The notes beneath the pieces are model-generated. The model did no database searches, had not been told where the DNA came from, and saw only the letters and a list, made by a program, of their open reading frames with translations. This document shows, in pieces, positions 2,578-61,098 of a stretch of DNA of 64,000 bases. Each line of letters opens with the position of its first letter. Positions within the stretch are counted from its first letter, which is position 1. A program made the position numbers and the translations under genes. This stretch comes from Escherichia phage vB_EcoM_ESCO47. Location: sequence record OM386662.1; one strand, written 5' to 3'.

Positions 2578-3476
2578 TGGCTATTTTCCGCGTACCTATC
2601 TTGAGTATGCGGTCTTATGAAACCGGACAGTATGCTATCCTTAAGGATGGCAACTTCCAACTTCATTTGCACCGTGCTAATCCAGGTGATGTGATTACAT
2701 ATCCACGTAATGCATCTGATATTAAAGAATGTGAACGTCTTTTCCCAGAATTTAAGTTTGTTCCATTATGGTATAAAGATAACGCGTATAACACTCGTAA
2801 ATATTTCTGGTCTGAAAATGAATTTGTGGTTGATTCATTAATTGCTTATTATGATTGTGATTTTCTAATCACAGATATCACTGGATATGATGGTGTTTTT
2901 GATGTAGAATTCAATTTCAATATCACTGCAGACCCTAATAAACCACGTTTTTATATTGACGAATTCTTAAAAACCGATATGTTGTCGGTTAATCGTTCAC
3001 TTCAAACTACTGTGTTGAATGAACGTCAAAAAGAAGTGCTGGTTAACGCAGGTGCAGATGGTAATAAGATTATCGTAACGCAGAAAGTTATACGTCCTTC
3101 CATCATGCAGCGTCTTGTAGGTGATTTGGCTCCTATTCATCTAGATGGTATTTTTCATCCATTTCGAATTAGTGACCCGTGCTATCGTTTTGAACAAGTG
3201 GTTGAATGTGCAATTCAATTAGGCCAACCACTTTATATAACCGATCCAAATAATAGCTTCGACAGAAATAAGTATCCTGAAGAAGCGCTGATTCGAATTT
3301 TTAAACCAACTAAAACTGAGTACTATCAAATTCTTAAAGGACGTCCGAAGATTCAATATTTCGAAAATCCTGAAGAAGTATTCCATCCAGGTCTTGGTGA
3401 GTTCATCTACTTTAACGCTTTAATTTCTTCGCCGTATAATATACCTAAATATGAAGATGTCGTAATCGAGGAATAA
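2577..3476 (+). CDS. hypothetical protein (299 aa) in the slot T4 uses for beta-glucosyltransferase
   Basis: TAATG stop/start overlap with gene 42; no resemblance to T4 Bgt as I recall it; no motif recognised. Confidence 0.55.
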   Translation: MAIFRVPILSMRSYETGQYAILKDGNFQLHLHRANPGDVITYPRNASDIKECERLFPEFKFVPLWYKDNAYNTRKYFWSENEFVVDSLIAYYDCDFLITDITGYDGVFDVEFNFNITADPNKPRFYIDEFLKTDMLSVNRSLQTTVLNERQKEVLVNAGADGNKIIVTQKVIRPSIMQRLVGDLAPIHLDGIFHPFRISDPCYRFEQVVECAIQLGQPLYITDPNNSFDRNKYPEEALIRIFKPTKTEYYQILKGRPKIQYFENPEEVFHPGLGEFIYFNALISSPYNIPKYEDVVIEE

Positions 3477-3477
3477 A

Positions 3478-4026
3478 ATGGCTAAAATTATTTTAGTAGA
3501 TGGCCCAGATAATGCTGGTAAAACAACTTTCATTAATGACATAATGGAAATTAGTGAAAGATATGTAAAGATTGATTTCCCTAAACGAACTGTAGATGGA
3601 CGCTTTGATGTTAAGTCTCGAAATGAAGTAGGCTGTTTCGAAACAATGCTAAATTATTTAGACCCTACTAAGATTTATCTGTTAGACCGTGGATATATTA
3701 GTAACTGGGTTTACGGACGTATTCGACAAGATGCGGACTCGGTTCTTGACGTTTATGAACAGGATTATGTTCGTCTTTGCCAAAACCATGATGTGTTCAC
3801 AATTATTTTAACACGTAACGAAATGACTGAAAGTTTTGAAGACGACCTTATCACGTTGTCTGCTCATGGCTTTAATTTTGTTATCTCACTTTTTGAAGAG
3901 TTTGCTGCTCATAATGGAATACAATCTTATCAGTTATTAAACCATGATGGTGCTAACAAAGTTATAGGATTTAATGTAAGTGAACGCAATGCATTGATTG
4001 CAGAAATTATCAAATGGGCTCGTTAA
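3478..4026 (+). CDS. P-loop nucleotide/nucleoside kinase (thymidylate-kinase / deoxynucleoside-kinase-like)
   Basis: Walker A ILVDGPDNAGKTT at N-terminus; LLDRGYIS (DR motif) as in Tmk/dNK kinases; 182 aa. Confidence 0.6.
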   Translation: MAKIILVDGPDNAGKTTFINDIMEISERYVKIDFPKRTVDGRFDVKSRNEVGCFETMLNYLDPTKIYLLDRGYISNWVYGRIRQDADSVLDVYEQDYVRLCQNHDVFTIILTRNEMTESFEDDLITLSAHGFNFVISLFEEFAAHNGIQSYQLLNHDGANKVIGFNVSERNALIAEIIKWAR

Positions 4027-10157: not shown

Positions 10158-11180
10158 ATGGCTGAATGGATAGATAATGAATTTGCTTATCGTGCGTTTT
10201 CTCACCTACCTCGTTTTAGACAAATCAATAATTCAAGCACATTTAAATTAACATTTCGTTGTCCAGTTTGTGGCGACTCCCAGACAGATGCAATGAAAGC
10301 CCGCGGTTGGTATTATGGCGGTACTCCTGGCAATGTACATTGTTATAACTGTCAATATCATAATACAATTTCTGGATACTTAAAAGAGTATGATGAAGAG
10401 CTTTATCGCGAATATCTAATGGAAGTTCGTAAAGAAAAAGCTAGAATGGAACCAAAGATTGAAAAGTTTCCTGAAGCTAAGCCGGAACCAGAGAAAAAGA
10501 CTATAAATTCTTTGCCGTCTTGTTCTCGTCTGGACAAGTTGCCTGAAGAGCATCCTATTGTGAAATATGTTAAGTCTCGATGCATTCCTAAAGAATCATG
10601 GAATAGACTATGGTTCACATTAGAATGGCCTAAATTGGTCAACAAGATTCAACCAGGGACATACAAGAAAGAGATTCCTGAACCACGTTTAGTGATTCCT
10701 ATTTTTAATAAAGATGGGAAGGCCGAGTCATTCCAAGGACGTGCACTTCGTAAAGATGCTCCTCAGAAATATATCACTATTAAAGCGTTTGAGACGGCAA
10801 CGAAAATATACGGTGTTGAACGTGTTAAGGAAGGAGATGTCTGGGTAATGGAAGGTCCTATTGATAGTTTATTCATACCCAATTCAATAGCTATTACAGG
10901 CGGCTCGATAGATTTAGATATGGTACCATTTAAAGAACGTCGGGTATGGGTAATGGATAATGAACCTAGGCATCCGGATACTATAGCTCGTATGAAACGT
11001 TTGGTAGATGCAGGCGAACGTGTCATGTTCTGGGATAAAGCTCCATGGAGATCAAAGGATGTGAATGATATGGTAATGAAAGAAAATGCAACACCAAATG
11101 AAATCCTTGAATATATGAAACAGAATATTTCAAGTGGGTTGCATGCTAAAATGAGATTATCTAAATATTCTAAAATTTAG
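10158..11180 (+). CDS. 61: DNA primase gp61
   Basis: 340 aa; zinc-ribbon CPVCGDS...CYNC and near-colinear match to T4 gp61 as I recall it. Confidence 0.95.
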   Translation: MAEWIDNEFAYRAFSHLPRFRQINNSSTFKLTFRCPVCGDSQTDAMKARGWYYGGTPGNVHCYNCQYHNTISGYLKEYDEELYREYLMEVRKEKARMEPKIEKFPEAKPEPEKKTINSLPSCSRLDKLPEEHPIVKYVKSRCIPKESWNRLWFTLEWPKLVNKIQPGTYKKEIPEPRLVIPIFNKDGKAESFQGRALRKDAPQKYITIKAFETATKIYGVERVKEGDVWVMEGPIDSLFIPNSIAITGGSIDLDMVPFKERRVWVMDNEPRHPDTIARMKRLVDAGERVMFWDKAPWRSKDVNDMVMKENATPNEILEYMKQNISSGLHAKMRLSKYSKI

Positions 11181-11374
11181 ACCAATCCTACTAGTGCAAA
11201 AGCAATATCAACTACTGTGTCAAGAGGCACAGAAGGAACGATAATACCGTTAGCAACTAGCAATGGAGCAATACCGAAATTCCAAGAAATGATTCCACCA
11301 ATAACAACAGCGGCTAAAATCGTTTTCTTTTTATGTCCTTTGATAGCGGCGATTAACAACGGTAACTTAAGCAT
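11177..11374 (-). CDS. small membrane protein (65 aa), antisense to the early-gene flow
   Basis: Hydrophobic; GGAG 9 nt upstream of ATG; paralogous to the adjacent minus-strand ORF. Confidence 0.5.
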   Translation of the reverse strand: MLKLPLLIAAIKGHKKKTILAAVVIGGIISWNFGIAPLLVANGIIVPSVPLDTVVDIAFALVGLV

Positions 11375-11570
11375 GCAAATTAACTCCGATTGCTTTGATT
11401 ATTGAAAGTATATGCTGTAACTCCACTTGTGGTAATATAATAGCTTGAGTTGCGGCCAATGGAACTATTACTAGATTCCATACTAAAACGTCCACAGCAA
11501 GAAAAAAGAATATCAACTTACGTGATTCTTTATTTGTTAACTTCCAGATTTGATAGAACACAGTTCCCAT
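11367..11570 (-). CDS. small membrane protein (67 aa), antisense to the early-gene flow
   Basis: AGGAGG 4 nt upstream of ATG; overlaps downstream ORF by 8 nt; shared WN(F/L)xI(A/V)PL core with its neighbour. Confidence 0.5.
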   Translation of the reverse strand: MGTVFYQIWKLTNKESRKLIFFFLAVDVLVWNLVIVPLAATQAIILPQVELQHILSIIKAIGVNLHA

Positions 11571-11598
11571 AAATCCTCCTACGTTATAGGTTTATTTA

Positions 11599-11623
11599 TG
11601 CTTTTTATCAGGTTTGGTATAAT
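11599..11623 (+). promoter_or_regulatory. candidate middle promoter upstream of gene 56
   Basis: TGCTTT 11599-11604 followed 13 bp later by -10 TATAAT 11618-11623. Confidence 0.4.
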
Positions 11624-11658
11624 TAACATCTCTTAAACATGAATTGAAAGGAAATAAA

Positions 11659-12180
11659 ATGGCGCACTTTAACGAATGTTCACAACTGATTGCTGGTGTT
11701 GATAAAGCTGAAGAAGCTTATTTTAATGCTCTTATTCACGAAGATAAAGACCCGTTGCAGGTAATGCTTGATATGCAGAAATCTTTACAGGTTCGTCTGG
11801 CAAATGACAAGCCTGAACATAACAAACATCCTGATGAATTGGCCACTGCTGGTGAAGTCGTTGATTGGCTACGCAATCAGAAAGATTATATTGACGATGA
11901 ATTCCGTGAACTTCTGACTTCTCTTGGTGGTATGAGCAATGGTGAAAAAGCCGCCAGCAGTGTATGGAAGCCGTGGAAGGCGCAACATGCTGAATATCGA
12001 AATCGTCGTATCGATGAACTGTCTCCTGAAGACCAGCTTGAAATCAAATTTGAAATGATTGATATTCTCCATTTCGTTCTGAATATGTTCCAAGGTCTTG
12101 GTCTTACTGCTGAAGAAATCTTTAAATTGTACTACCTGAAGAACAAACATAATTTTGAACGCCAGGATAATGGATATTAA
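11659..12180 (+). CDS. 56: dCTP pyrophosphatase gp56 (dCTPase/dUTPase-like)
   Basis: MAHFNEC...DPLQVMLDMQ...YYLKNK...RQDNGY matches T4 gp56 as I recall it; listed ORF starts at TTG 11644, ATG at 11659. Confidence 0.9.
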   Translation: MAHFNECSQLIAGVDKAEEAYFNALIHEDKDPLQVMLDMQKSLQVRLANDKPEHNKHPDELATAGEVVDWLRNQKDYIDDEFRELLTSLGGMSNGEKAASSVWKPWKAQHAEYRNRRIDELSPEDQLEIKFEMIDILHFVLNMFQGLGLTAEEIFKLYYLKNKHNFERQDNGY

Positions 12181-12182
12181 GA

Positions 12183-12190
12183 TATAAATA
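12183..12190 (+). promoter_or_regulatory. late promoter (TATAAATA) for soc
   Basis: Exact TATAAATA 29 nt upstream of the soc ATG. Confidence 0.7.
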
Positions 12191-12218
12191 CACCTGTAAT
12201 TAACTAAAGGAGTAAATT

Positions 12219-12470
12219 ATGGGTGGATATGTAAATATCAAAACGTTCGACCATGAAGTAGCAGGTGGTACAGTAGAAGGTACCGAGGTTTCTGTTGCAT
12301 TTGAAGTTTATTCTAATGCTCATCGAATCTCAGGTGCGCACTATCAGACTTTCCCGTCTGAAGAACCAGCCTATGATACTGTGGTTGACACCGCAGATGA
12401 TTGGGCAACAGCAAATGAAGCTATGTTTACCCCAGAACCTGCACCGGTTCCTCCAGGACCCGGTGCATAA
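12219..12470 (+). CDS. soc: small outer capsid protein Soc
   Basis: 83 aa; GYVNIKTF...VSVAF..Y...H.ISGAHYQTFPSE matches T4 Soc as I recall it; TATAAATA late promoter upstream. Confidence 0.85.
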   Translation: MGGYVNIKTFDHEVAGGTVEGTEVSVAFEVYSNAHRISGAHYQTFPSEEPAYDTVVDTADDWATANEAMFTPEPAPVPPGPGA

Positions 12471-12480
12471 GTTAATTATA

Positions 12481-12506
12481 AGGAATCCTTCGGGATTCCT
12501 TTTTTC
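12481..12506 (+). terminator. rho-independent terminator after soc
   Basis: AGGAATCC-TTCG-GGATTCCT then TTTTT. Confidence 0.7.
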
Positions 12507-12515
12507 GTTTCTACA

Positions 12516-12545
12516 GTTTACATCCTTGTAAAACAGTGTTATAGT
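12516..12545 (+). promoter_or_regulatory. early promoter-like element
   Basis: -35 GTTTAC 12516-12521, -10 TATAGT 12540-12545, then AGTCCTATCAA; ATG at 12574. Confidence 0.5.
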
Positions 12546-12573
12546 AGTCCTATCAAAACAAGAGGAGAACACT

Positions 12574-12789
12574 ATGTTAAATCGTTGGATTAAACCTAAT
12601 CAAACCTTAGATGAAGTTATTGCTCGTCAGGTTATACAGAAATATGATCTTCAACTATGGTATGCTGAAGTTGTTGTGCATTCATTCATGATGCATGCTG
12701 ATGGCTCAGTCGAATTTAATGCAGAAATCCGTAATGATTTTGAAGATGAAGGCCTGCCTAAAGTTGCATTTGTAAGAGGGTTCTTATAA
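12574..12789 (+). CDS. hypothetical protein (71 aa)
   Basis: Early promoter element and RBS upstream; no motif recognised. Confidence 0.45.
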   Translation: MLNRWIKPNQTLDEVIARQVIQKYDLQLWYAEVVVHSFMMHADGSVEFNAEIRNDFEDEGLPKVAFVRGFL

Positions 12790-14654: not shown

Positions 14655-15266
14655 ATGTTTTTACCTTATAATGAATGTGAAATTGAAGAAATGGTTCGCC
14701 GAGCACAAGACCCTGTGTTCCAAGAAGACCTGCAATACAAAATTGATGAAGTGTTCAGTGATTCTGAGCAGAGCACTCTTTGGCAGTGCATGGAAAATAA
14801 ACCGGATTGCATTCAACAAGAGTTGGATTCAATCATTCGTAAAAATTGGTCATCTTCTGTGCCAACGGTCCTTTATCGTGGAATTTCTAAGAAAACTCTA
14901 AAAATGTTAGATTCTGTAGGATGTGTAGGAGCTACTATCAAGTTTGACCGAGTAATGAGCTTTAGTTCAGTATTTGGTGTAGCACGTAATTTTGCTTCAC
15001 ACAATTTTTATGGAACTAAACAAATATTCTGTGTTAAGAATGCTCCATTCGCTTTTAACTTCAGAGAAACAATGCTTGACATGATTTTGGCTGCGCCATC
15101 TTGCGAGTTCAGCGGAGCTTTCCCTGAAGCGACTAGACGGTCTAATGTTCGTTTAGTATCTGATGAGTGTGAATTTATGTTCCCGATCGGGACTACACTA
15201 CGTGTAGATTCTGTTACTGAAGAAGGAACTTATCGGATATGGAATCTGTCTATTATCGGTTACTGA
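14655..15266 (+). CDS. ADP-ribosyltransferase (ModA/ModB-like)
   Basis: R-S-ExE triad: YRG, FSS and ECEF motifs in correct order; position matches the T4 modA/modB locus between 56 and dda. Confidence 0.7.
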   Translation: MFLPYNECEIEEMVRRAQDPVFQEDLQYKIDEVFSDSEQSTLWQCMENKPDCIQQELDSIIRKNWSSSVPTVLYRGISKKTLKMLDSVGCVGATIKFDRVMSFSSVFGVARNFASHNFYGTKQIFCVKNAPFAFNFRETMLDMILAAPSCEFSGAFPEATRRSNVRLVSDECEFMFPIGTTLRVDSVTEEGTYRIWNLSIIGY

Positions 15267-15417
15267 CCGGATTGGAATAACCGGAAGGAACTCAGAACCA
15301 TTATAATACATAAATTTTTAAAGCATTTTACGAAAAAGAGTGTACAATACCTGAGAACATGATACTACAGACTTATCAGCTAAATGCCCCAACGTCCGTA
15401 AGACGGAAGAAAATATT

Positions 15418-16170
15418 ATGAAATTATCAAACATCCAAATCAAGAAAATCGAACGTCGTTTAGATCACACCAGAGCTTCTGCAAAGAGGCGCTCTAAGGA
15501 TTTTAACTTAGACTTTAATTACCTTAAAAACATTCTTGATCAAAAGGTCTGCGCTTACTCAGGTGAAACCTTTGATAACAAGGTTGAAGGTGAGAAATTA
15601 TCCTTAGAACGTTTTAATAACGATATCGGTTACATTAAAGGTAACGTTATTCCTGTCAAGAAAAAATATAACGCAGCACGTTCAGATTTTACTTTAGCCG
15701 AACTCATCGAGAAACGTGAAATAATCGCTGGACGTATCGCTACTCCTAGCGCAAAGAAAGTTGAAAAGCTTAATCTCGATGAAAAGAAATGGGCTGAAAT
15801 CAAACACACTTATACACAAATTAAAAATATCCAAAACAAACGTAAGAGCCGTATCGATCATATTGAAAAAATGACTAAAGGTAAAAGCACCTTATCTAAA
15901 GAAGACCAATTAAAAGTTGTCGGATTAAAAGCCCGCATCGATGGTTCCAGAGTTGCCGAAGGACGTGAAGTAACAAAGTTAAATGTTCTTCTTAAAGGTT
16001 CTGATTGGAAAACTAAAACCAAGTTATCCGACGCAGAAACGCTTTTTGATACATATGATAAAGTTATCCAAGGATTACAACGTTTCGAAAAGATTGGTTT
16101 CATCGGTAAATTAAAATTGAAACGTGGTTTACCACTTAACACTTCTATCTTTAAATTGATTAAAGGTTGA
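15418..16170 (+). CDS. hypothetical protein (250 aa), Srd-like by position
   Basis: Lys-rich; lies between the mod-like gene and dda where T4 has srd; no diagnostic motif. Confidence 0.4.
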   Translation: MKLSNIQIKKIERRLDHTRASAKRRSKDFNLDFNYLKNILDQKVCAYSGETFDNKVEGEKLSLERFNNDIGYIKGNVIPVKKKYNAARSDFTLAELIEKREIIAGRIATPSAKKVEKLNLDEKKWAEIKHTYTQIKNIQNKRKSRIDHIEKMTKGKSTLSKEDQLKVVGLKARIDGSRVAEGREVTKLNVLLKGSDWKTKTKLSDAETLFDTYDKVIQGLQRFEKIGFIGKLKLKRGLPLNTSIFKLIKG

Positions 16171-39377: not shown

Positions 39378-39385
39378 TATTTATA
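39378..39385 (-). promoter_or_regulatory. late promoter (TATAAATA) for gene 36
   Basis: Plus strand TATTTATA = minus TATAAATA, about 27 nt upstream of the gene 36 start codon at 39351. Confidence 0.7.
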
Positions 39386-44426: not shown

Positions 44427-44434
44427 TATTTATA
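44427..44434 (-). promoter_or_regulatory. late promoter (TATAAATA) for gene 34
   Basis: Plus strand TATTTATA = minus TATAAATA, about 30 nt upstream of the gene 34 start codon at 44396. Confidence 0.7.
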
Positions 44435-46690: not shown

Positions 46691-46698
46691 TATAAATA
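46691..46698 (+). promoter_or_regulatory. late promoter (TATAAATA) upstream of gene 32
   Basis: Exact TATAAATA in the gene 32 leader. Confidence 0.6.
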
Positions 46699-61090: not shown

Positions 61091-61098
61091 TATAAATA
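61091..61098 (+). promoter_or_regulatory. late promoter motif (TATAAATA) downstream of gene 31
   Basis: Exact TATAAATA immediately after the gene 31 stop, upstream of the rIII-like gene. Confidence 0.5.

What the first reader, a model, noticed from the sequence alone, without database searches (positions are those of the whole stretch)
12183..12470. soc sits on the early-gene strand with its own late promoter
A perfect TATAAATA precedes soc, and a strong terminator follows. Unlike T4, where soc is on the opposite strand to its early neighbours, here it is co-oriented with genes 56 and the mod-like gene. This may permit read-through early transcription into a capsid-decoration gene.
Basis: partly seen in the sequence, partly recalled or inferred. 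Interest (0 to 1): 0.3.

Follow-up and report, generated by a model that had tools for sequence, protein, structure and literature searches.

The report
Standard T4-type soc gene cassette
This is an ordinary T4-family capsid-decoration gene (soc) with its usual late promoter, start-codon-masking hairpin and terminator, arranged as in phage T4 itself, so the claimed difference from T4 does not exist.

Summary
The sequence features are real. ORF 12219-12470 (+) is Soc (Pfam PF16855 E 3e-23; RB69 Soc structure 3ig9 E 3e-28). A perfect TATAAATA lies at 12183-12190, a UUCG-loop intrinsic terminator at 12480-12505, and soc shares a strand with gene 56 upstream and the mrh, mod and srd genes downstream.

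The premise "unlike T4" is wrong. In the T4 reference record, soc, segF, 56, mrh and modA/B are all on one strand. The same holds in all 23 related loci I fetched (T2, RB69, VR7, SP18, NC-G, Klebsiella, Erwinia, Enterobacter and Salmonella phages, and IMG/VR contigs).

Two reviews state that T4 soc translation is repressed on long polycistronic early/middle transcripts by an RNA helix that sequesters the ribosome-binding site. They cite Macdonald, Kutter and Mosig 1984.

The window has that device. Hairpin 12191-12225 (-13.5 kcal/mol, z -4.9 to -5.3) pairs the bases just after the late box with the AUG. A late transcript starting near 12196 loses the base of the stem (-3.0 kcal/mol).

Box, hairpin and terminator recur as one module across the subfamily. 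Verdict: already known, low interest.

The parts
11599..11623 (+). Putative MotA-type middle promoter for gene 56: TGCTT 11599-11603, 12-bp spacer after the 9-mer box, TGgTATAAT 11615-11623. Likely source of transcripts that read through into soc.
   Evidence: Read directly from the sequence. This is a consensus match only and the assignment is inferred. T4 has oriA and the gene 56 transcript start at the equivalent place (annotation).
11659..12180 (+). Gene 56 dCTP/dUTP pyrophosphatase, 173 aa. Its stop codon TAA (12178-12180) is 2 nt before the soc late box.
   Evidence: PHROG 173 E 8e-46. Pfam dUTPase_2. 99% identical to the phage NC-G dCTP pyrophosphatase.
12183..12190 (+). T4-type late promoter box TATAAATA (positions -13 to -6). 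Predicted late transcription start near 12196.
   Evidence: Positionally conserved in the window and all 23 soc loci. Promoter definition from PMC2988020.
12191..12225 (+). RNA hairpin. The 5' arm CACCUGUAAUU (12191-12201) pairs with AAUUAUGGGUG (12215-12225), which contains the AUG. An inner 3-bp helix involves part of the Shine-Dalgarno sequence. The full hairpin exists only on transcripts started upstream of the late promoter.
   Evidence: -13.5 kcal/mol, z -4.9, 0 of 200 shuffles as stable. z -5.3. Late form -3.0 kcal/mol. AUG unpaired probability 0.01 on the long form against 0.23 on the late form. Equivalent hairpins in relatives.
12207..12212 (+). Shine-Dalgarno sequence AAGGAG, 6 nt before the ATG.
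   Evidence: Sequence. Conserved column block in alignment A2.
12219..12470 (+). soc, small outer capsid (head decoration) protein, 83 aa.
   Evidence: Pfam PF16855 E 3.2e-23, 82 bits against a cutoff of 27. PDB 3ig9 RB69 Soc E 2.8e-28 and T4 Soc 5vf3 E 1.5e-20. PHROG 1715 E 5e-36.
12480..12505 (+). Intrinsic terminator: AAGGAAUCC-UUCG-GGAUUCCUU followed by a U-run.
   Evidence: -12.7 kcal/mol, z -3.8. The same UUCG-tetraloop terminator follows soc in T4, RB69 and the other loci, with compensatory stem changes such as GGACUCC/GGAGUCC against GGAAUCC/GGAUUCC.
12517..12545 (+). Sigma-70 early-type promoter (TTTACA, 17 bp, TG-TATAGT) that restarts early transcription for the mrh.2-like gene at 12574-12789.
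   Evidence: Promoter scan, 10 of 12 matches with an extended -10. The same arrangement is present in T4. ORF 12574-12789 hits PHROG 1873; T4 mrh.2 and this ORF both begin MLNRWIKP.

Best explanation
The region is the conserved T-even soc expression cassette. It sits in a phage closest to NC-G, a Dhakavirus (95.8% identity over 83% of the 1.7-kb query).

soc lies inside a block of early/middle genes (61, 56, soc, mrh, mod, srd), all transcribed in one direction.

Proposed mechanism:
1. Before replication, transcripts started upstream, probably at the gene 56 middle-type promoter, run through gene 56 into soc, because no terminator intervenes.
2. On these long RNAs the 11 nt just downstream of the late box (12191-12201) pair with 12215-12225. 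This buries the AUG and part of the Shine-Dalgarno region, so Soc is not translated.
3. Late in infection, gp55/gp33-RNA polymerase starts at the TATAAATA box, about 12196.
4. That RNA lacks the G+C-rich base of the stem (CACCU). The remaining helix is weak, the ribosome-binding site opens and Soc is made.
5. The UUCG-loop terminator at 12480-12505 ends both transcript classes, and a fresh early promoter at 12517-12545 serves the downstream genes.

Shown here: gene identities, motifs, predicted structures and their conservation.

Inferred: the transcription start point, which promoter supplies the read-through, and the translational effect. The translational effect rests on the T4 precedent.
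For: - Soc identity.
- Same strand and order (56 then soc, then mrh and mod) in T4, NC-G, VR7, a Klebsiella phage, SP18, Erwinia phage COW86c, Enterobacter phage myPSH1140, T2, RB69, pSs-1, a Salmonella phage and a second Klebsiella phage. tblastn places gene 56 upstream on the same strand in all 23 loci.
- Late box at a conserved distance in the window and all 23 loci.
- No terminator-like site on the + strand between 11659 and 12219.
- Window hairpin: -13.5 kcal/mol, z -4.9 to -5.3. The late form is -3.0 kcal/mol.
- Across 20 distinct homologous leaders, 15 have z below -2.
- Mean unpaired probability of the AUG is 0.08 on the long form and 0.38 on the late form.
- Within the RB69/window group, 10 of the 11 helix positions are paired in 9-10 of 10 sequences, with AT-to-GC compensatory changes at two positions. 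Within the T4 group, 11 of 12 positions are paired in 4-5 of 5 sequences.
- Four other TATAAATA sites in the window show no promoter-straddling hairpin.
- Literature: the Shine-Dalgarno sequence and/or AUG of T4 soc are sequestered in a helix (PMC3014915). soc is translationally repressed on long polycistronic early/middle messages (PMC2988022). All early and middle transcripts share one polarity, while late transcripts have either polarity (PMC2988020).
Against: - No transcript or translation data exist for this phage. The late start site is assumed from the T4 rule that the box occupies -13 to -6.
- The 6 nt after the box (CACCTG) are less A+T-rich than is typical for T4 late promoters (PMC2988020).
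- A single-register covariation test over all 20 leaders is not significant: 65.9% of cells paired against 64.0% in shuffles, and RNAalifold gives no consensus. The T4-group helix is shifted by two columns relative to the RB69/window group.
- Three leaders (L017, L011, L023) show no significant hairpin.
- In the T4 group the truncated late leader is still predicted to pair the AUG weakly.
- The sequences are related, so the statistics are not independent.
- The primary 1984 paper was not in the held library.
Confidence: 0.85

Rival explanations
1. One reading: this phage differs from T4 by having soc on the early strand, a new arrangement that lets early read-through produce Soc prematurely.
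For: Co-orientation and the absence of an intervening terminator are real.
Against: T4 has the same orientation, as do all 23 relatives examined. A strong hairpin masking the AUG is present on the read-through form. This is the known T4 answer to the read-through problem.
Confidence: 0.02
2. The TATAAATA is a chance A+T-rich octamer. soc is expressed only from upstream promoters, and the hairpin is incidental.
For: The octamer is not enriched in the window: 5 found against 7 expected. The segment just after the box is not A+T-rich.
Against: The box is kept at 27-34 nt from the ATG in the window and all 23 loci, even where the upstream neighbour is segF or another ORF instead of gene 56. Alignment columns 2-8 are invariant. 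The only variant seen is A(-13), the commonest natural late-promoter variant.
Confidence: 0.03
3. The hairpin is present on both transcript classes, because the late start lies at or before 12191. It would then act mainly as a 5' stabiliser or processing signal and not as a temporal translational switch.
For: - The exact start is unmapped here.
- soc mRNA is a known substrate in decay studies (RNase LS/Dmd; PMC3014915).
- T4-group late leaders are still predicted to pair the AUG.
Against: - A box at -13 to -6 puts +1 inside the 5' arm in every homologue.
- In 17 of 20 distinct leaders, removing 5 nt costs 4-11 kcal/mol.
- Reviews attribute translational repression to this structure in T4.
Confidence: 0.1

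Closest known systems
Phage T4 soc locus (56, segF, soc, mrh.2): late gene in an early region (Macdonald, Kutter and Mosig 1984, Genetics 106:17, as cited in PMC2988022 and PMC3014915)
   Same: - Same strand as the flanking early/middle genes.
- TATAAATA 29 nt before the ATG in T4, 28 nt here.
- A hairpin that starts just after the box and pairs with the AUG.
- A UUCG-loop terminator, then a new early promoter and the mrh.2 homologue.
   Different: - T4 carries the segF homing endonuclease between 56 and soc. Here 56 abuts the soc promoter.
- The helix register differs. T4 pairs CAUG with CAUG. The window pairs CACCUG with UAUGGGUG through G-U pairs.
- The window hairpin is more stable (-13.5 against -8.6 kcal/mol).
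- The Soc proteins are 54% identical, and the window protein has a Pro-rich C-terminal tail.
Phage NC-G (MK310184, Dhakavirus) and RB69 (NC_004928) soc loci
   Same: NC-G is 95.8% identical in DNA over 83% of the 1.7-kb query. Its leader is identical and its Soc is 98% identical. RB69 has the same hairpin register and the same terminator stem.
   Different: NC-G annotates soc only as "capsid and scaffold protein". RB69 has extra sequence between 56 and soc, and its loop is 3 nt longer.
Other T4 late genes masked on early read-through transcripts: e (lysozyme), 49, I-TevI and other homing endonucleases
   Same: The same logic applies. A late promoter sits inside or next to the 5' arm of a helix that sequesters the Shine-Dalgarno sequence or AUG on longer early/middle RNAs (PMC3014915, PMC2988022).
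   Different: These are different genes with unrelated sequences. No homology is implied.

Membership tests
Soc small outer capsid protein (Pfam PF16855) | Sequence match to the family profile above the curated threshold | tested here: met
   82.4 bits against a cutoff of 27, E 3.2e-23, covering profile positions 1-71 of 74. PHROG 1715 E 5e-36.
Soc small outer capsid protein (Pfam PF16855) | Homology to experimentally solved Soc proteins | tested here: met
   RB69 Soc 3ig9 E 2.8e-28 over residues 1-75. T4 Soc in capsid structures 5vf3 and 7vs5, E 1.5e-20.
Soc small outer capsid protein (Pfam PF16855) | Binds as trimers at the interfaces between gp23 hexamers and stabilises the capsid | not testable with these tools
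   Requires virion biochemistry or cryo-EM.
T4-type late promoter (gp55/gp33-dependent) | 8-bp TATAAATA box about one helical turn upstream of the start site | tested here: met
   Exact match at 12183-12190. Conserved in position in the window and all 23 loci. Definition from PMC2988020.
T4-type late promoter (gp55/gp33-dependent) | A+T-rich segment immediately downstream of the box | tested here: inconclusive
   The window has CACCTG (2 of 6 A/T) followed by TAATTAA. T4 soc has ATCATG.
T4-type late promoter (gp55/gp33-dependent) | Replication-coupled, gp55-dependent initiation in vivo | not testable with these tools
   Needs 5'-end mapping in wild-type and gene 55 mutant infections.
T4 soc/e-type masked late gene (ribosome-binding site sequestered on read-through RNA) | Late gene co-oriented with upstream early/middle genes, with no terminator between them | tested here: met
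   56 and soc are on the same strand, 38 nt apart, and no terminator-like site lies on the + strand between 11659 and 12219.
T4 soc/e-type masked late gene (ribosome-binding site sequestered on read-through RNA) | A stable helix that includes the Shine-Dalgarno sequence and/or AUG on the long transcript | tested here: met
   Prediction only. -13.5 kcal/mol, z about -5. AUG unpaired probability 0.01.
T4 soc/e-type masked late gene (ribosome-binding site sequestered on read-through RNA) | The late transcript starts inside the 5' arm, so the helix cannot form | tested here: inconclusive
   With +1 at box + 6 (12196) the stem drops to -3.0 kcal/mol. The start site is assumed, not mapped.
T4 soc/e-type masked late gene (ribosome-binding site sequestered on read-through RNA) | No translation from the early/long RNA, translation from the late RNA | not testable with these tools
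   Stated for T4 in reviews. Not measured for this phage.
Intrinsic (Rho-independent) terminator | G+C-rich stem-loop followed by a U-run | tested here: met
   9-bp stem, UUCG loop, 6 T; -12.7 kcal/mol, z -3.8. Conserved after soc in relatives.

The most novel reading that the evidence does not exclude
The masking hairpin of soc may be kept by selection on structure and not on sequence, with different pairing solutions across Tevenvirinae:
- CAUG pairs with CAUG in the T4 group.
- CACCUG pairs with UAUGGGUG in the RB69/Dhakavirus group, a helix shifted by 2 nt.
- An anti-Shine-Dalgarno CUCCU pairs with AGGAG in a Klebsiella phage.

A few phages (Erwinia COW86c, L011) appear to have lost it. 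This would be a small comparative case of a translational timing device being repeatedly rebuilt. It adds nothing new about this window itself.
Probability: 0.55. Interest if true: 0.15.

Novelty: already known. Interest (0 to 1): 0.07.

Why it matters
It matters little beyond correct annotation. The locus should be annotated as soc with a late promoter, a leader hairpin and a terminator; the nearest record, NC-G, calls the protein only "capsid and scaffold protein".

The comparison shows that the T4 paradigm extends as a conserved module across at least seven genera of T-even phages. In that paradigm a late gene is embedded in an early transcription unit and silenced on read-through RNA by a hairpin straddling the late promoter. 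This is useful for people who engineer Soc display fusions or predict gene timing from sequence.

Tried and rejected
- **Motif enrichment.** TATAAATA is not over-represented in the window, so the argument rests on positional conservation instead.
- **Single-structure covariation.** The count of structure pairs and RNAalifold on all 20 leaders gave no significant signal and no consensus. The T4-group helix is offset by two columns. Group-wise counts and per-sequence shuffles were used instead.
- **Rfam.** A scan of 11400-12700 found no family.
- **Primary literature.** Macdonald et al. 1984 (PMC1202244), Miller et al. 2003 (PMC150520) and Kai and Yonesaki 2002 (PMC1461945) are not in the held library. 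Statements about T4 regulation rest on two reviews and the T4 GenBank annotation.
- **T4 time-resolved omics paper.** PMC9697503 does not mention soc in its main text.
- **Pfam for the Mod-like ORF.** No hit. PHROGs identified it.
- **Expensive searches not used.** Structure prediction and the large protein database searches were unnecessary, because identity was unambiguous.

Full report
**What is there**

The ORF at 12219-12470 (+) encodes an 83-aa protein.
- It matches Pfam Soc (PF16855) at 82 bits, E 3e-23.
- It matches the solved RB69 Soc (3ig9, E 3e-28) and T4 Soc in capsid structures (5vf3 and 7vs5, E 1.5e-20).
- It matches PHROG 1715, a virion structural protein family, at E 5e-36.
- It is 54% identical to T4 Soc and 98% identical to the protein of phage NC-G.

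The other features read as follows.
- An exact TATAAATA lies at 12183-12190, 2 nt after the gene 56 stop codon and 28 nt before the soc ATG.
- After the soc stop there is a stem-loop, AAGGAAUCC-UUCG-GGAUUCCUU, plus a T-run at 12480-12505. It folds at -12.7 kcal/mol with z -3.8.
- A good sigma-70 promoter follows at 12517-12545.

**Neighbours**

All of these are on the + strand.
- Upstream: gene 61 primase (10158-11180) and gene 56 dCTPase (11659-12180).
- Downstream: homologues of mrh.2 and mrh.1, two Mrh-like proteins, an RNA polymerase ADP-ribosylase (Mod, 14655-15266; PHROG 832 E 3e-39) and Srd (15418-16170).

The nearest public genome is phage NC-G, a Dhakavirus, at 95.8% identity over 83% of the 1.7-kb query.

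**Is it more than chance?**

TATAAATA alone is not enriched in this A+T-rich window: 5 sites against 7.0 +/- 3.0 expected. Position is what counts.

I compared the window with 23 related loci. These were NC-G, T4, T2, RB69, VR7, SP18, pSs-1, two Klebsiella phages, Erwinia phage COW86c, Enterobacter phage myPSH1140, a Salmonella phage and 11 IMG/VR contigs.
- In every one, TATAAATA (20 of 24) or AATAAATA (4 of 24) lies 27-34 nt before the soc start.
- This holds even though the DNA 5' of the box is unrelated between loci. It is the end of gene 56, the end of segF, or other small ORFs.
- AATAAATA is the A(-13) variant, the commonest natural late-promoter variant in T4 (PMC2988020).

**The comparison with T4 is wrong**

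In the T4 reference record, soc (15331-15573), segF, 56, dam and 61 on one side, and mrh.2, mrh.1, mrh, srh, modB, modA and srd on the other, are all on the minus strand.
- The same co-orientation is annotated in all eleven other annotated records fetched.
- tblastn puts gene 56 upstream of soc on the same strand in all 23 loci.
- The late-transcription review says that all early and middle T4 transcripts share one polarity, while late transcripts have either polarity.

The window shows the ancestral, universal arrangement and not a departure from it.

**How it most likely works**

Two reviews describe the T4 case.
- soc is one of the late genes carried on long polycistronic early/middle transcripts that are translationally repressed by sequestration of the ribosome-binding site. 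The review cites Macdonald, Kutter and Mosig 1984 (PMC2988022).

The window carries the same device.
- Bases 12191-12201 (CACCUGUAAUU) lie immediately after the late box. They pair with 12215-12225 (AAUUAUGGGUG), which contains the start codon.
- An inner 3-bp helix touches the Shine-Dalgarno sequence.
- The fold is -13.5 kcal/mol with z -4.9, and no shuffle out of 200 was as stable. A second shuffle test gave z -5.3.
- If the box occupies -13 to -6, the late RNA starts at about 12196 and lacks CACCU. The residual structure is only -3.0 kcal/mol.
- The predicted unpaired probability of the AUG rises from 0.01 on the long form to 0.23 on the late form.

No terminator-like site lies between gene 56 and soc. 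A MotA-box plus extended -10 match at 11599-11623 is the likely source of read-through RNA, but this is a consensus match only and is inferred.

**Comparative support**

- Among 20 distinct leaders, 15 have hairpin z-scores below -2.
- The mean unpaired probability of the AUG is 0.08 on long forms and 0.38 on late forms.
- In the RB69/Dhakavirus-type group (10 sequences), 10 of the 11 helix positions are paired in 9-10 of 10 sequences. There are AT-to-GC double changes at two positions.
- In the T4-type group (5 sequences), the helix is offset by two columns and pairs CAUG with CAUG. It is similarly intact.
- A Klebsiella phage instead pairs CUCCU with the Shine-Dalgarno AGGAG.

Because of these different registers, a one-structure covariation test is not significant and RNAalifold returns nothing. 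Three leaders (L017, L011, L023) show no significant hairpin. The sequences are related, so all of these numbers are descriptive.

As an internal control, the four other TATAAATA sites in the window show no structure that depends on bases upstream of the late start. Two of these precede tail-fibre genes on the minus strand and one precedes gene 32.

The UUCG-loop terminator is also conserved after soc in every locus that has a single soc, with compensatory stem changes.

**Comparison with what is known, and novelty**

This is the T4 soc cassette. The differences from T4 are minor.
- There is no segF homing endonuclease between 56 and soc, which is also the state in NC-G, RB69, SP18 and pSs-1.
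- There is no dam gene between 61 and 56.
- The helix register differs and the masking hairpin is somewhat stronger.
- Soc has a Pro-rich C-terminal tail.

No Rfam family covers the leader, but the mechanism is described in the literature. I rate the finding as already known, with low interest.

**Limits**

- No expression data exist for this phage.
- The late start site and the translational effect are inferred from the T4 precedent and from structure prediction.
- The primary 1984 paper and the 2003 T4 genome review were not available in the held library.

Noticed in passing
window 11177-11374 (-) and 11367-11570 (-): Two tandem small hydrophobic ORFs (65 and 67 aa) lie on the strand opposite to 61, 56 and soc. 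They are weak paralogues: 35% identity over 31 aa, E 6e-6. The first is PHROG 2024, of unknown function, and resembles RB69ORF029w and VR7ORF033w. A near-consensus late box, CATAAATA, at 11600-11593 (-) sits 22 nt before the ATG at 11570. It overlaps the putative gene 56 middle promoter on the other strand. NC-G annotates only one of the two ORFs.
   Followed up: partly
window 11181-11658 and 12181-12218: The dam methyltransferase, present between 61 and 56 in T4 and T2, is absent here. So is the segF homing endonuclease, present between 56 and soc in T4 and VR7.
   Followed up: partly
L003-L005 about 3332-3548; L016 2501-2966: Three IMG/VR T4-like contigs and Shigella phage SP18 carry two tandem soc paralogues. 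In the IMG/VR loci the second copy follows the soc terminator and has its own AATAAATA-like box.
   Followed up: no
window 46691-46698 (+), 39378-39385 (-), 44427-44434 (-), 61091-61098 (+): These are the other perfect late-promoter boxes in the window. 46691 (+) precedes a gene 32-like start (MFKRK...) on the early strand. The two minus-strand boxes precede tail-fibre-like genes. The target of 61091 (+) was not identified.
   Followed up: partly
window 12426-12467: Soc here, and in NC-G, ends in a Pro-rich tail (TPEPAPVPPGPGA) that T4 Soc lacks. RB69 Soc aligns only as far as residue 75.
   Followed up: no
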